Virus record (IMG/VR): IMGVR_UViG_2541047686_000001
DNA from: a virus
Taxonomy: Duplodnaviria > Heunggongvirae > Uroviricota > Caudoviricetes
DNA: 4,715 bases
Direction: 5' to 3' (one strand)
This document shows, one piece after another, positions 1 to 4,620 of this stretch. Under the pieces are notes generated by a model. That model searched no databases. It was not told the DNA's origin and saw nothing but the letters and a program-made list of their open reading frames with translations. How positions within the stretch are numbered: the stretch's first letter is position 1; each line of letters begins with the position of its first letter. A program made the position numbers and the translations under genes.

Positions 1-303
1 TTCAGCATGAGAAATTGCCTCTGTGGGCCAGGTGGTAAGCACTTCCTGCTCAATCTGTTTAACGGCTTCATTCATGGAAGGCAGCTTTGTCTTCTTCGGA
101 TGGTTATGCCACAGGGACATCGCCACCAGAAACGCGCCGGTTCTGATGGCGTCTTCCACAGTAAACTTCCGGTTGCTGTCTGACTCCGCCTGTTCTGCCT
201 GCCGTTTCATCAGGGCGAGATGCTCAATACGCTGCAGGGCTGACAGTTCAGAAAGCGTGACGGTCACACCGTTATGTTCAAATGATTCGGTTTTCAGGAA
301 CAT
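1..303 (-). CDS. G: Tail assembly chaperone G, N-terminal 101 codons; 3' end lies beyond the window start
   Basis: Reverse-complement translation from the ATG at 303..301 gives MFLKTESFEHNGVTVTLSELS and the codon at 1..3 ends ...WPTEAISHAE, matching lambda gpG from memory. A 15-nt gap to the V stop with a GGAGA Shine-Dalgarno matches lambda V-G spacing. Not in the ORF track because no stop codon falls in the window. Confidence 0.88.
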   Translation of the reverse strand, partial: MFLKTESFEHNGVTVTLSELSALQRIEHLALMKRQAEQAESDSNRKFTVEDAIRTGAFLVAMSLWHNHPKKTKLPSMNEAVKQIEQEVLTTWPTEAISHAE

Positions 304-318
304 CGCTGACTCTCCGGA

Positions 319-1059
319 TTAACTGGCGGTGACGTTGATTTCTGCAACCGCAGCAAACTCACCATTACCGGATACGACCGGAATGTTGACCTTGCCTGCA
401 GCAACACCTTTCACGGTGATGGTCATACCACTGACCGACACGGTGGCTTTTGTTTTATCCGCAGACACCGCACGGAAGCTCTTGTCGGTTGCGCCCTCCG
501 GCTGGAATGCCACGGTCAGCGTGGTGCTCTGCCCTTTCACTACGGAAGCACTGGCGGGTGTCACCGTCATGCCGGTTGTCGCCGTCACCGTGCTGCGATC
601 TTCTGCCATCGACGGACGGCCCACATTGGTGACCTTCACCGTGCGGGTGATCACTTCCTTCGCCGTCACCGCCTTACCGATACTGCTGACCCAGCCGCGG
701 AACACATCGACCGTGCCGTTCGGGAAGCGGATTTTATAGGCTCGGGTATCCCCTTCATTAAACCACGCCAGCAGCGCCTGCTGCCCCTGCTCTCCGGGCA
801 TCCACGCCAGCGTGAAGCTGGTATCTCCGGCAGATTTCTGCCCCTGTCCGGTCGCGGTCCAGTCCGCATCTTCATCATCGAGATAACTGTCGTCATAGGA
901 CTCAGCGGTCAGTTCGCCGGGCGTCAGGTCTTTAACTTTAGCCAGACGCGACCAGTCAACGTCTGAAAGCGGGTTCGCATAAGGGTCACCGTTCCCCTTA
1001 TAAACCCACAGTGTGGTCCCGGCCCCTTTCACCGGTGCCAGAGGATTTGGTGTTGGCAT
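319..1059 (-). CDS. V: Major tail tube protein gpV (246 aa) with C-terminal Ig-like domain
   Basis: ORF 319..1089 translation from [22 protein letters not shown] to the end matches lambda gpV. Start placed at the ATG at 1059..1057, 7 nt after the U stop as in lambda; the track's longer start at 1089 overlaps U. Stop TAA at 321..319. Confidence 0.93.
736..830. repeat. Copy 1 of a 95-bp exact direct repeat, internal to V (codons about 77-108)
   Basis: Base-by-base comparison shows 736..830 is identical to 4621..4715. The flanking bases 735 (t) and 4620 (g) differ. Confidence 0.95.
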
Positions 1060-1066
1060 ATCGTCC

Positions 1067-1462
1067 TCACATTTCATAGGTAATGACATAAGTCAGATCG
1101 GCTGAACTCCACAGGCCCGCATCATCGTCGCGCCGGTAGTCATAGCCACTGGCCACCATACTGGTGATCAAATCTGACAGTGCCGGGATATCGCTCATCA
1201 CCGGATAAATCCGGGACTCCATCCACGAATCCAGCTCTGAATCCGGCACCTGAGCAGGCAGGAAAACTTCAATATGCAGCTCCGCCTGCCAGGTATCACT
1301 GTCCAGCTCTTCGCCCGTGTATTCAGCGCCGGTGAGATAAACGGCAACTGCCGGAAAATCCGCCTCATCAAAAACAGCGGGGCGACCATCAAAAAACGTC
1401 GCCCCGGTGTCATGCTTCTCCAGTGCATCCAGTACGGCTGCACGGAGTTCAGTATGTTTCAT
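1067..1462 (-). CDS. U: Tail terminator protein gpU (131 aa)
   Basis: Translation [31 protein letters not shown]... matches lambda gpU in length and sequence. Its ATG (1462..1460) overlaps the Z stop TGA (1461..1459) in an ATGA arrangement, as in lambda. Confidence 0.94.
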
Positions 1463-2413: not shown

Positions 2414-2809
2414 TTATTGCATTCTGGCCAGGCCGCGCTCTGTCATTTCAGCTGCCACACCGGCAGAGACACGGAACGCCGTTCCCGGCAGCACAAATGC
2501 CACAGCCTCATCCCGCGTGGCGTGAAGTGCATCAGTATGCAGCGTCACCAGTGCCACAACCGTGACCAGATCAGCCGTATCAGTCACGGTATCCGGCTGC
2601 GCTGATACCACCTCATTTTCATGTCCGGTCAGCGCATTTTCCGGGCTGACAGATGTGTCCTGACCAGCAGCGTCATCCGTGTCATCAAGCTCCTCTTCCA
2701 GCTCTGCCACACGGAGTGCCAGTTCTTCTTTCGTCCCCGTCAGGCTGACATCACGGTTCAGTTGCTCACCCAGCACCTGAAGACGGGCAATCAGTTCATC
2801 TTTCGTCAT
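2414..2809 (-). CDS. FI: DNA packaging / head assembly accessory protein gpFI (131 aa)
   Basis: Translation from MTKDELIARLQVLGEQLNRDVSLTGTKEELALRVAEL... matches lambda gpFI. Start placed at the ATG at 2809..2807, which has a GGAGGAG Shine-Dalgarno (plus 2813..2819) upstream; the track's longer ORF to 2848 would run through the intergenic hairpin. Confidence 0.9.
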   Translation of the reverse strand: MTKDELIARLQVLGEQLNRDVSLTGTKEELALRVAELEEELDDTDDAAGQDTSVSPENALTGHENEVVSAQPDTVTDTADLVTVVALVTLHTDALHATRDEAVAFVLPGTAFRVSAGVAAEMTERGLARMQ

Positions 2810-2812
2810 GGA

Positions 2813-2819
2813 CTCCTCC
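2813..2819 (-). promoter_or_regulatory. Shine-Dalgarno sequence for FI (GGAGGAG)
   Basis: Plus strand ctcctcc at 2813..2819 is GGAGGAG on the minus strand, 3-5 nt upstream of the FI ATG at 2809. Confidence 0.6.
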
Positions 2820-2830
2820 ACAGAGAGAAA

Positions 2831-2848
2831 ATGGCCCCGAAGGGCCAT
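2831..2848 (-). promoter_or_regulatory. Candidate RNA stem-loop just after the E stop codon: 7-bp stem with a UUCG tetraloop, followed by UUUUCUCUCUG and the FI Shine-Dalgarno
   Basis: Plus strand atggccc(2831..2837) cgaa gggccat(2842..2848) is a perfect inverted repeat. On the mRNA it reads AUGGCCC-UUCG-GGGCCAU, beginning 2 nt after the E stop. Confidence 0.35.
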
Positions 2849-2850
2849 GA

Positions 2851-3876
2851 TTACGCCAGTTGTACGGACACGAACGCATCAGGGTCAGCCAGCAGCATCA
2901 GCGGTGCTGACTGAATCATGGTGAACTCACGCGCCGGATCGCCGGTGGTCACCCAGTTTTTCGGGTAGCGGGCAGAGGCGTTAATACCTTCGCGCTGTGC
3001 GTCCGCATCCTGAATGCAGCCATAGGTGCGCAGACCGCGTGCCTGAGTGTTCCCCAGCACCATCGTGTTGTCCGGCAGGAAGTTCTTTTTGACGTCGTTT
3101 TCCACGTACTGTCCGGAATACACGACGATCGCCGTATCGCCATACATCCCCTTATAGGACACCGCTTCGCCCAGATCTTTTACCGCTGTCTCCAGCTCGG
3201 AATGAGAGCCGCGACGGGTATCCAGCTTCTCCTTGACGGCTTTGAAGGAACGGAACAGCGCCCAGCCTTTCGGATCAAACACGATGATATTCACCACACC
3301 GCTGGCGTTCAGCGCGTAGGCTTCGATATCGTCGGTCGGGTCATACGTGGACTTGTCACGCTTGCTCCACTCCGTACCGCCGGACTGCGTGATGTTGTTC
3401 GCCACACTGCGGCCCATATCCACTTCAACCGGATCGAAGGCTTCACCGGTCATGGTATATTTGCCCTTAAGCACGGCAGAAACGGCCTGCATCTCTTCGA
3501 CCTGAGCAATGGCCAGCTCTTCGTCTCGCATGTTCTGCAGAATGATGCGACGGCGGCGGTAAGCCGGGTCCGCCAGATTCTGTGGATCTTCATCCGGCAG
3601 GCGACGCAGGGTCATCTGCGGATTCACCTCATGCTTCGGCTTGACATATCCCGGTGTAAATTCAGAGGTGGAGCCGCCACGGGAGCGGATAACCTCACCG
3701 GAAACAATCGGCGAAACGTACAGCGCCATGTTTACCAGTCCCGGAATTTGTGAGAGATAGACTTTCTCCGTGGTGAAGGGATAGCTCTCACGGAAAAAGA
3801 GACGCAGAAACAGCGGATCAAACTTAAATTTCTTCTCATTTGCCGCCAGCAGCTGGGCGGTTGTGTACATCGACAT
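2851..3876 (-). CDS. E: Major capsid protein gpE (341 aa, HK97-fold)
   Basis: Translation MSMYTTAQLLAANEKKFKFDPLFLRLFFRESYPFTTEKVYLSQIPGLVNMALYVSPIVSGEV... to ...LLADPDAFVSVQLA matches lambda gpE. The 1026-nt length equals lambda E. Start at the ATG at 3876..3874; the track's upstream extension uses a non-ATG codon (cac on plus at 3901..3903). Confidence 0.95.
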   Translation of the reverse strand: MSMYTTAQLLAANEKKFKFDPLFLRLFFRESYPFTTEKVYLSQIPGLVNMALYVSPIVSGEVIRSRGGSTSEFTPGYVKPKHEVNPQMTLRRLPDEDPQNLADPAYRRRRIILQNMRDEELAIAQVEEMQAVSAVLKGKYTMTGEAFDPVEVDMGRSVANNITQSGGTEWSKRDKSTYDPTDDIEAYALNASGVVNIIVFDPKGWALFRSFKAVKEKLDTRRGSHSELETAVKDLGEAVSYKGMYGDTAIVVYSGQYVENDVKKNFLPDNTMVLGNTQARGLRTYGCIQDADAQREGINASARYPKNWVTTGDPAREFTMIQSAPLMLLADPDAFVSVQLA

Positions 3877-3931: not shown

Positions 3932-4264
3932 TTAAACGATGCTGATTGCCGTTCCGGCAAACGCGGTCCGTTTTTTCGTCTCGTCGCTGGCAGCCTCCGG
4001 CCAGAGCACATCCTCATAACGGAACGTGCCGGACTTGTAGAACGTCAGCGTGGTGCTGGTCTGGTCAGCAGCAACCGCCAGAATGCCAACGGCAGCACCG
4101 TCGGTGGTGCCATCCCACACAACCAGCTTACGGGTGGAGGTGTCCAGCATCAGCGGGGTCATTGCAGGCGCTTTCGCACTCAATCCGCCGGGCGCGGTTG
4201 CCGTATGTGCCGGGTCACTGTTGCCCAGCGGCTGGTAATGGGTAAAGGTTTCTTTGCTCGTCAT
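3932..4264 (-). CDS. D: Capsid decoration protein gpD (110 aa)
   Basis: Translation [110 protein letters not shown] matches lambda gpD. Start at the second ATG (4264..4262), 9 nt after the C/Nu3 stop as in lambda; the first ATG at 4270 sits directly against the GGG of the Shine-Dalgarno. Confidence 0.94.
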
Positions 4265-4273
4265 AAACATCCC

Positions 4274-4620
4274 TTACACTGGTGTGTTCAGCAAATCGTT
4301 AACGGCATCAGATGCCGGGTTACCTGCAGCCAGCGGTGCCGGTGCCCCCTGCATCAGACGATCCAGCGCAGTGTCACTGCGCGCCTGTGCACTCTGTGGT
4401 GCAGCTGCCAGAATGCGGCGGGCCGTTTCCACGGTCATACCGGGGGTTTCGGCCAGCACGCGTGCCTGTTCTTCGCGTCCGTGAGCCTCCTCACAGTTGA
4501 GGATCCCCATAATGCGACTGTTTTCTGCCGCAACCGCTGCGGTGATCTGCGCGTTCACGTCCGGCTGCGCCGCGCTGGCGTTCTCGCCCTCCGTCGCTTG
4601 CACCACCTCAGTAACGTCAG
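4274..4620 (-). CDS. C: C-terminal portion of the overlapping C (prohead protease) / Nu3 (scaffold) frame; N-terminal part is absent and the frame is cut at the repeat junction
   Basis: Translation ...[109 protein letters not shown] matches the shared C-terminus of lambda gpC/gpNu3. Stop TAA at 4276..4274. Beyond 4620 the sequence is V-derived and this frame hits a stop at 4640..4642. The track's start at 4606 is an internal GTG, not the native start. Confidence 0.82.

What the first reader, a model, noticed from the sequence alone, without database searches (positions are those of the whole stretch)
2829..2850. Perfect 7-bp hairpin with UUCG tetraloop between E and FI
The mRNA-sense sequence AUGGCCC-UUCG-GGGCCAU sits 2 nt after the E stop and is followed by a short U/C-rich run and the FI Shine-Dalgarno. 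UUCG is a classic highly stable tetraloop. Its position directly after the most abundantly needed head protein suggests a role in differential expression, such as partial termination or attenuation, 3' stabilisation of E-containing transcripts, or an RNase processing site. I do not recall a characterised function for it.
Basis: seen in the sequence. Interest (0 to 1): 0.35.

Follow-up and report, generated by a model that had tools for sequence, protein, structure and literature searches.

The report
Terminator-like hairpin after lambda capsid gene
A small, stable RNA hairpin sits right after the major capsid gene of this lambda-like phage; nearly every relative keeps a hairpin at that spot although the sequence differs, so it probably has a function, but it belongs to a kind already annotated in related phages and its role has never been tested.

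Summary
On the minus strand, 2 nt after the E stop codon, lies AUGGCCC-UUCG-GGGCCAU (2848..2831, -12.9 kcal/mol). It is followed by UUUCUCUCUGU, the FI Shine-Dalgarno GGAGGAG and the FI AUG.

Taken alone the hairpin is not statistically unusual: 28% of shuffled windows contain a perfect 7-bp stem with a 4-nt loop. Its position and conservation are what matter. In 85 distinct regions downstream of E-family capsid genes (E identity 34-100%), every one has a stable hairpin, with 29 different stem cores. In the lambda/N15/phi80 clade the two outer pairs covary. The UUCG loop is not conserved. 57% of the hairpins also carry a U-tract, against 7% of control segments.

The homologous hairpins are annotated as putative rho-independent terminators in N15 and HK225. 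HK97 and T7 have analogous terminators after their capsid genes. A phage L genome paper states that the roles of such intra-late-operon terminators are unknown.

My best reading is inferred, not shown. On Q-antiterminated late transcripts the hairpin forms nuclease-resistant 3' ends just past E, which favours capsid-gene mRNA over downstream genes. It is also a weak terminator for unmodified polymerase. The kind is already known; interest is modest.

The parts
2851..2853 (-). UAA stop codon of E (major capsid protein gene, CDS 2851-3876)
   Evidence: the E protein is 97-100% identical to lambda-type E
2842..2848 (-). 5' arm of the hairpin, AUGGCCC. It begins 2 nt after the E stop, and its AUG is in frame with FI
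2838..2841 (-). UUCG tetraloop closed by a C-G pair
   Evidence: the loop is not conserved in relatives
2831..2837 (-). 3' arm of the hairpin, GGGCCAU
   Evidence: pair probabilities 0.49-1.00 in a 201-nt context
2820..2830 (-). U/C-rich tail UUUCUCUCUGU. It is a weak U-tract (5 U in the first 8 nt) and is complementary to part of the FI SD
2813..2819 (-). Shine-Dalgarno GGAGGAG of FI
2414..2809 (-). FI (DNA packaging chaperone) CDS; its AUG lies 21 nt after the hairpin
   Evidence: Pfam PF14000, E = 1.8e-50

Best explanation
This is a conserved, terminator-like RNA hairpin that marks the 3' boundary of the capsid-gene segment of the late transcript.

Proposed mechanism, inferred rather than shown:
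- The late operon is transcribed by Q-modified, terminator-resistant RNA polymerase (established knowledge about lambda Q), so most polymerases read through.
- The hairpin then folds in the mRNA. When the poorly translated downstream part (FI-FII-Z-U) is cut by an endonuclease, 3'-to-5' exonucleases are stopped at the base of the stem. The rare polymerase that does terminate at the weak U-tract gives the same kind of end.
- The result is hairpin-capped, longer-lived RNAs that end just after E. This raises E (and D) mRNA relative to genes needed in few copies.

Shown here: the hairpin exists, folds stably in context, is kept at this position across the whole E family with sequence turnover and compensatory changes, and usually has terminator anatomy.

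Inferred: 3' ends form there, and they change mRNA ratios.
For: - Stability: -12.9 kcal/mol; the hairpin forms in 91- and 201-nt contexts.
- Position is conserved but sequence is not. All 85 distinct regions downstream of E-family capsid genes (E identity 34-100%) have a hairpin of -9.6 kcal/mol or better, with 29 different inner stem cores.
- 96% of capsid-gene stops are followed within 60 nt by a structure of -11 kcal/mol or better, against 32% of 318 other ORF stops in the same loci (Mann-Whitney p = 4e-25).
- In 29 of 36 representatives the hairpin ranks in the top 10% of same-length segments of its own locus.
- Covariation in the lambda/N15/phi80 clade: outer pairs AU 7 / GU 6 / GC 4 and UA 12 / CG 3 / UG 1; 96% of cells are paired, against 32-57% for slid controls.
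- Among close relatives the only stem change is A to G, which keeps a G-U pair, while the tail varies.
- A high-GC clade keeps the hairpin without any U-tract (L156, L160, L164-L171). The hairpin, not the terminator tail, is therefore the universal part.
- The hairpin stays at the capsid gene's 3' end whether or not the next gene is recognisable as FI.
- The hairpin lies exactly at the boundary between D/E, needed in about 400 copies per head (my own knowledge), and low-copy genes.
- A known mechanism of this type exists. Protective 3' stem-loops stabilise the upstream, heavily translated cistron in E. coli operons (malE-malF, puf; PMC5927463). In a clostridial operon they set the subunit stoichiometry of a protein complex (PMC4423207).
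Against: - No transcript 3'-end, coverage or half-life data for lambda could be reached. Liu et al. 2013 is not held.
- From my own knowledge, the classical conclusion for lambda (Sampson, Hendrix, Huang and Casjens 1988, PNAS) is that late mRNA is roughly equimolar and that translation initiation sets the protein ratios. That leaves little room for a large effect.
- U-tracts are strongly enriched after these hairpins (43/76 against 25/341 controls). An exonuclease barrier does not need a U-tract, so this points to real termination.
- The stem starts 2 nt after the stop codon, so every terminating ribosome must melt it.
- A 7-bp stem is only a modest barrier.
- V, the major tail protein, is needed in high copy and lies downstream.
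Confidence: 0.45

Rival explanations
1. It acts as a leaky intrinsic terminator during lytic growth. A substantial fraction of late-transcribing polymerases stop at the U-tract after E, so genes downstream of the capsid gene are transcribed less (transcriptional attenuation, as at T7 Tphi).
For: - The consensus terminator scan picks it up: 7-bp stem, 5 GC pairs, tail TTTCTCTCTG.
- 57% of E-family hairpins have at least 5 U in the next 8 nt, against 7% of control segments. Many distant relatives are textbook terminators with A- and U-tracts: L178, L184, L177, L183, L173, L225, L161.
- The homologues are annotated as rho-independent terminators in N15 and HK225. HK97 carries a putative terminator after gp5, and T7 has Tphi after gene 10.
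- Weak phage terminators with read-through are used to balance expression (PMC9163698).
Against: - Lambda Q makes polymerase resistant to terminators over the whole late operon (established knowledge).
- The U-tract here is poor: 3-4 consecutive U, then CUCUCU.
- The stem starts 2 nt after the stop codon, so a coupled ribosome would block folding at the moment it matters.
- Several clades have no U-tract at all.
- V and all tail genes downstream must still be well expressed.
Confidence: 0.2
2. It is a safeguard against unprogrammed transcription. It terminates polymerases that have not been modified by Q (read-in or spurious initiation in the prophage or early in infection) and has little role in the lytic late transcript.
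For: - It has terminator anatomy.
Against: - It does not explain why the element sits specifically at the 3' end of the major capsid gene in every lineage.
- It does not explain the U-tract-less versions.
Confidence: 0.12
3. Its role is translational. The hairpin and the flanking pyrimidine tract shape the FI ribosome-binding region, either insulating it from E-terminating ribosomes or masking the SD so that FI translation is coupled to E translation.
For: - The spacing from the hairpin end to the next start codon is tight (median 19 nt, interquartile range 16-24).
- The CU-rich tail can pair with GGAG of the SD.
- In the N15/phi80 clade a CUUCC-like tract right after the stop codon pairs with the FI SD across the hairpin.
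- 49 of 76 hairpins start within 12 nt of the stop codon, that is, inside a terminating ribosome's footprint.
Against: - Shuffling or deleting the hairpin in silico does not systematically change the predicted accessibility of the FI SD/AUG: wild type 0.38 against 0.36 +/- 0.20.
- The SD-masking helices are weak, and any pyrimidine-rich tract would be expected to form them.
- The SD is invariant, so covariation cannot test the idea.
- The hairpin persists where the downstream gene is unrelated (L130).
Confidence: 0.1
4. It has no function. It is a chance palindrome or a neutral remnant, or a DNA-level site with no RNA role.
For: - A perfect 7-bp/4-nt-loop hairpin occurs by chance in 28% of shuffled windows.
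- More stable local folds exist inside coding regions of the same window.
Against: - The hairpin is conserved in position in all 85 distinct relatives, with unrelated sequences.
- The outer pairs show compensatory changes.
- There is strong contrast with other gene ends.
- The sequence diversity argues against a sequence-specific DNA-binding site.
Confidence: 0.04

Closest known systems
Stem-loop between N15 gene 8 and gene 9 (annotated 'putative rho-indep. transcription terminator'), and the 'rho-independent terminator' between the capsid and FI genes of HK225; phi80 and mEp237 carry the same hairpin
   Same: It is the homologous element at the same position, between the E-type capsid gene and FI. 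It has the same GGCCC/GGGCC stem core, 7 bp and a 4-nt loop.
   Different: The closing pairs are G-C instead of A-U. The loops are AUUC or UGUC instead of UUCG. The hairpin lies 9 nt rather than 2 nt after the stop codon. The tail is CUUUCUGGAG, which has even fewer U. These records carry sequence-based annotation only, with no experiments.
Putative terminators after the major head gene gp5 and the major tail gene of HK97; the terminator at the end of the procapsid module of P22-like phage L
   Same: They are GC-rich hairpins in a very short gap directly after the most abundant structural gene, inside an antiterminated late operon (PMC8022706).
   Different: The capsid genes are unrelated in sequence and so are the hairpins (HK97: GGGCGGG-GAAA-CCCGCCC + UUUU). 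Their roles are explicitly described as 'not known'.
T7 terminator Tphi after gene 10 (major capsid protein)
   Same: It follows the same logic of position: a read-through-permitting terminator right after the capsid gene and before lower-copy genes. Inefficient terminators balance T7 expression (PMC9163698).
   Different: It acts on T7 RNA polymerase and is experimentally established. It has a longer stem and lies about 48 nt after the stop codon. No antitermination system is involved.
Protective intercistronic 3' stem-loops: the malE-malF REP, the puf 'mRNA decay terminator', and selective RNA processing and stabilisation in the cip-cel operon
   Same: They are stable stem-loops directly 3' of the more abundant, more heavily translated cistron of a polycistronic mRNA. 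They block 3' exonucleases after a downstream cleavage and set subunit stoichiometry (PMC5927463; PMC4423207).
   Different: Those cases have mapped 3' ends and measured half-lives, and here nothing has been measured. REP elements are longer, dispersed repeats, whereas this is a single 18-nt hairpin.

Membership tests
Intrinsic (Rho-independent) terminator | GC-rich stem-loop (stem of at least 5 bp, loop of 3-8 nt) | tested here: met
   7-bp stem with 5 GC pairs, 4-nt loop, -12.9 kcal/mol
Intrinsic (Rho-independent) terminator | U-rich tract immediately 3' of the stem | tested here: inconclusive
   UUUCUCUCUG passes the scan threshold (5 U of 8) but has only 3-4 consecutive U. In relatives, 43 of 76 pass against 25 of 341 controls, and some clades have none.
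Intrinsic (Rho-independent) terminator | Transcripts actually end at the U-tract (in vitro or in vivo), and the response to Q is known | not testable with these tools
   No 3'-end data were available. The lambda reference records carry no annotation here.
Protective intercistronic 3' stem-loop (mRNA decay barrier) | Stable stem-loop in the gap directly 3' of the more highly expressed cistron | tested here: met
   It lies 2 nt after the E stop and forms in context. It is specific to capsid-gene ends: 96% against 32% of other stops.
Protective intercistronic 3' stem-loop (mRNA decay barrier) | Structure conserved while sequence changes | tested here: met
   29 distinct stem cores in 76 distinct hairpins; the outer pairs covary
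Protective intercistronic 3' stem-loop (mRNA decay barrier) | Upstream segment is longer-lived or more abundant, and 3' ends map to the base of the stem | not testable with these tools
   This needs RNA-seq, Term-seq or rifampicin-chase data from induced lysogens.
cUUCGg (UNCG) tetraloop hairpin as a conserved motif | The UNCG loop with a C-G closing pair is maintained in relatives | tested here: not met
   The motif is present in the window. N15 has AUUC, phi80 UGUC, and others have UGUU, UUUC, GAAAU, GCAA or 3-9-nt loops. 26 of 48 tetraloops are UNCG, but most of those belong to one clade.
RNase III processing hairpin (T7 late mRNA, lambda sib type) | Long double-stranded stem, about two helical turns (criterion from established knowledge) | tested here: not met
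   There are only 7 bp, and no longer enclosing helix appears in 91-nt or 201-nt folds.
Any curated Rfam family | Score at or above the family's gathering threshold | tested here: not met
   The best overlapping hit is PhotoRC-I at 14.2 bits against a threshold of 45, E = 4.3.

The most novel reading that the evidence does not exclude
The hairpin is the core of a translational coupling device rather than a transcript-end signal. It brings a pyrimidine-rich, anti-SD-like tract into contact with the FI Shine-Dalgarno. That tract is CUUCC right after the stop codon in the N15/phi80 clade and CUCUCU just 3' of the stem in the lambda clade. Only ribosomes terminating on E, whose footprint covers the stem, would unmask the next gene's ribosome-binding site. 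This would fix the ratio of head-completion protein to capsid protein at the level of translation, across the whole E family.
Probability: 0.08. Interest if true: 0.5.

Novelty: already known. Interest (0 to 1): 0.22.

Why it matters
Terminator-like hairpins placed directly after the major capsid gene, inside late operons that are transcribed by antiterminated polymerase, are widespread. One genome paper says plainly that their roles are not known (PMC8022706). This survey shows that in the lambda E family the hairpin is essentially universal while its sequence turns over, so it is under selection. Lambda is the easiest system in which to settle what such elements do (attenuation, RNA stabilisation, insulation or translational coupling). 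The answer would refine how phages set the stoichiometry of virion proteins, and it would be useful for phage engineering. It would not overturn any current view.

Tried and rejected
- Rfam scan of the whole window at permissive thresholds: nothing relevant.
- RNase III site: rejected, because the stem is only 7 bp.
- Significance of the hairpin from composition alone: not significant. The argument rests on position and conservation.
- UUCG as the functional feature: rejected, because the loop is not conserved.
- Hairpin as an insulator of the FI ribosome-binding site: in silico shuffling or deletion gives no consistent change in SD/AUG accessibility.
- N-terminally extended FI starting at the AUG in the 5' arm (ORF 2414-2848; phi80 record JX871397 annotates the equivalent GUG): judged unlikely. 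There is no SD upstream, the codon is buried in the stem, and the other records start FI at the downstream AUG.
- Association with FI rather than with E: the hairpin persists where the next gene has no FI signature. This is a weak test, since most next genes may be FI analogues.
- Literature: ten full-text searches found no experimental work on this site. Liu et al. 2013 (lambda ribosome profiling and mRNA-seq) and Casjens and Hendrix 2015 are not held. PMC5737525 has no per-gene mRNA data and no supplements.

Full report
**What the window is.** The minus strand carries a lambda-type late (head-tail) gene block:
- D: 3932-4270
- E: 2851-3876
- FI: 2414-2809
- FII: 2049-2402
- Z: 1459-2037
- U: 1067-1462
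- V: from 319.

The 401 bases around the finding are 100% identical to several sequenced lambda-like phages (Lambda_2E9, 1H12, PhiR30_1) and 96% identical to lambda itself.

**The observation.** In mRNA sense the sequence is UAA(E stop) UC AUGGCCC UUCG GGGCCAU UUUCUCUCUGU GGAGGAG UCC AUG(FI). The stem-loop occupies 2848..2831.
- It folds at -12.9 kcal/mol. None of 200 shuffles of the 22-mer folds as well.
- It is present in the MFE and centroid structures of a 91-nt context.
- In a 201-nt context its pair probabilities are 0.86-1.00 for the six inner pairs.

The description is therefore accurate. Taken alone, however, the hairpin is not beyond chance:
- Dinucleotide shuffles of the window contain at least one perfect 7-bp/4-nt-loop hairpin 28% of the time.
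- Ten other 30-nt windows on this strand, all within coding sequence, fold more stably.
- The terminator-pattern scan that picks up this hairpin finds no more sites than expected (4 against 4.2).
- No Rfam family matches.

**Relatives.**
- Lambda has the same hairpin with the tail UUGUUUCUCUG.
- N15 and an Enterobacter Ravinvirus have GUGGCCC-AUUC-GGGCCAC. phi80, HK225 and mEp237 have GUGGCCC-UGUC-GGGCCAC.
- Phage 21 and PhiR12 have an unrelated hairpin at the same place: CGGGGGC-GAAAU-GCCCCCG followed by UGUCUUUUUUC.

I then collected loci encoding E-family capsid proteins from IMG/VR and from GTDB genomes. I used E itself, an alignment of E homologues, and an alignment of distant homologues. 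In each locus I located the capsid gene's stop codon.

Results of the survey:
- There are 85 distinct downstream sequences, with E identity from 100% down to 34%. Every one contains a hairpin of -9.6 kcal/mol or better between the capsid stop and the next gene.
- 76 hairpins are distinct, and they have 29 different inner stem cores.
- 96% of capsid-gene stops are followed within 60 nt by a structure of -11 kcal/mol or better. The figure for 318 other ORF stops in the same loci is 32% (p = 4e-25).
- In 29 of 36 representatives the hairpin ranks in the top 10% of same-length segments of its own locus.
- In the clade that shares the GGCCC/GGGCC core, the five inner pairs are invariant. The two outer pairs covary: AU 7, GU 6, GC 4; and UA 12, CG 3, UG 1. 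In all, 96% of cells are paired, against 32-57% when the partner is slid.
- Among sequences at least 95% identical in E, the only stem substitution is A to G at the first position, which keeps a G-U pair. The tail and the FI coding sequence vary more.
- The loop is not conserved. UUCG, UGCG, UCCG and UACG are common within one clade, but AUUC, UGUC, UGUU, UUUC, GAAA, GCAA and 3-9-nt loops also occur.

**Anatomy.**
- 43 of 76 hairpins are followed by at least 5 U in 8 nt, and 58 of 76 by at least 4. In control segments the counts are 25 and 47 of 341.
- Many distant relatives are textbook intrinsic terminators with flanking A- and U-tracts (L173, L177, L178, L183, L184, L225, L161).
- A high-GC clade (L156, L160, L164-L171, L174) has a strong hairpin and no U-tract, with the next gene's GGAG 3 nt after the stem.
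- The hairpin starts a median of 10.5 nt after the stop codon (2 nt in this window). It ends a median of 19 nt before the next start codon.
- The next gene is FI by Pfam in the closer clades. In distant clades it is a small protein with no Pfam match, and in one locus (L130) it is a different-looking 74-aa protein.

**What is already known.**
- The N15 record annotates the homologous stem-loop as a 'putative rho-indep. transcription terminator', and the HK225 record as a 'rho-independent terminator'.
- The two lambda reference records annotate nothing there.
- HK97, whose capsid gene is unrelated in sequence, carries an annotated 'terminator, putative' 6 nt after gp5 (GGGCGGG-GAAA-CCCGCCC UUUU) and another after its major tail gene.
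- T7 has Tphi after gene 10.
- The phage L (P22-like) genome paper notes a putative terminator at the end of the procapsid module, inside the single late operon. [quoted passage not shown] It suggests partial termination, or stopping transcription that lacks antitermination (PMC8022706).
- Weak, read-through terminators are a documented way for phages to balance expression (PMC9163698).
- Protective 3' stem-loops stabilise the upstream, heavily translated cistron in E. coli operons (PMC5927463). In the clostridial cip-cel operon they set the subunit stoichiometry of the cellulosome (PMC4423207).

**Mechanism.** What is universally kept is a stable hairpin at the 3' end of the capsid gene. A U-tract is frequent but dispensable. 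Lambda's late operon is transcribed by Q-modified polymerase, which ignores terminators (established knowledge), and the U-tract here is poor. The stem also begins inside the footprint of a ribosome sitting on the E stop codon. I therefore think substantial termination during lytic growth is unlikely.

My favoured reading is that the hairpin defines nuclease-resistant 3' ends just past E. Most would arise by exonucleolytic trimming after a cut in the thinly translated FI-U stretch, and some by rare termination. Capsid-gene RNA would then outlast downstream RNA. This is inference; no step of it was observed.

Points against this reading:
- The classical conclusion for lambda (Sampson et al. 1988, from my own knowledge) is that late protein ratios are set by translation initiation on roughly equimolar mRNA.
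- The U-tract enrichment speaks for true termination.
- V, needed in high copy, lies downstream.

The rival readings are a leaky terminator, a safeguard against non-antiterminated transcription, a translational role at the FI ribosome-binding site, and no function. I scored them accordingly. The translational idea has some suggestive anatomy: the tight spacing to the next start codon, and pyrimidine tracts able to pair with the SD, including a CUUCC:GGAG outer helix around the hairpin in the N15/phi80 clade. However, in silico removal of the hairpin does not change the predicted accessibility of the FI SD/AUG.

**Verdict.** The feature is real and its position is conserved. It belongs to a kind already annotated in close and distant relatives, namely a terminator-like hairpin after the major capsid gene. 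Its function in lambda is still untested. The new information here is the breadth of conservation and the finding that the UUCG loop is incidental. Interest is modest.

Noticed in passing
window 1377-1406 (both strands), inside gene U: This is the most stable local fold in the window: a 9-bp GC-rich inverted repeat, CGGGGCGAC-N11-GUCGCCCCG, at -18.9 kcal/mol on the mRNA strand. It lies inside the coding sequence of U.
   Followed up: no
window 2810-2848 (minus strand); L003 508-543: The AUG that forms the first three bases of the hairpin is in frame with FI and opens a 13-codon extension (ORF 2414-2848). The phi80 record JX871397 annotates FI from the equivalent GUG in its hairpin arm, whereas N15, HK225, mEp237 and lambda records start at the downstream AUG. 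There is no SD upstream, so this is probably an annotation artefact.
   Followed up: partly
L003, L211, L212, L220, L208, L111 and others: the 45-nt capsid-FI gaps of the N15/phi80/Kluyvera clade: A CUUCC-like pyrimidine tract immediately after the capsid stop codon can pair with the FI Shine-Dalgarno (GGAGU). This forms an outer helix that encloses the GC hairpin; the whole structure is -17 to -21 kcal/mol. It could mask the SD until a ribosome terminates on the capsid gene. The SD is invariant, so covariation cannot test this.
   Followed up: partly
window 2808-2821 (minus strand): A small predicted hairpin, GUGGA-GGAG-UCCAU, puts part of the FI SD and the AU of the start codon in a 5-bp stem, with GGAG in the loop. 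It is present in both the MFE and centroid folds. The predicted unpaired probability of the AUG is only about 0.26.
   Followed up: partly
L091-L106, L118, L123, L126, L128, L134, L136, L138-L146 and others (GTDB genome contigs): Lambda-type E genes at 95-99% identity turn up on short, low-coverage contigs of assemblies labelled Bacillus-like, actinomycete, Akkermansia, Prevotella, Vibrio and others. This is almost certainly lambda DNA contamination of those assemblies.
   Followed up: no
L247 2186-2220 and 4438-4472 (HK97): In HK97 the putative terminators after the major head gene and the major tail gene are each preceded, not followed, by a GGAG-like motif (UGAUGGAGG-hairpin-UUUUAACGUAUG; UAAUGGAGA-hairpin-UGGAUAAGCGAUG). 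Folding of the hairpin would bring that motif closer to the next start codon.
   Followed up: no
window 4366-4382: This is the only other perfect palindromic hairpin with a stem of at least 7 bp in the window: GCGCAGT-GTC-ACTGCGC. It lies inside the coding sequence upstream of D.
   Followed up: no
window 302-321 (minus strand), V-G junction: The major tail gene V is not followed by a hairpin here: the 15-nt gap reads UAAUCCGGAGAGUCAGCGAUG. HK97, by contrast, has a putative terminator after its major tail gene.
   Followed up: partly
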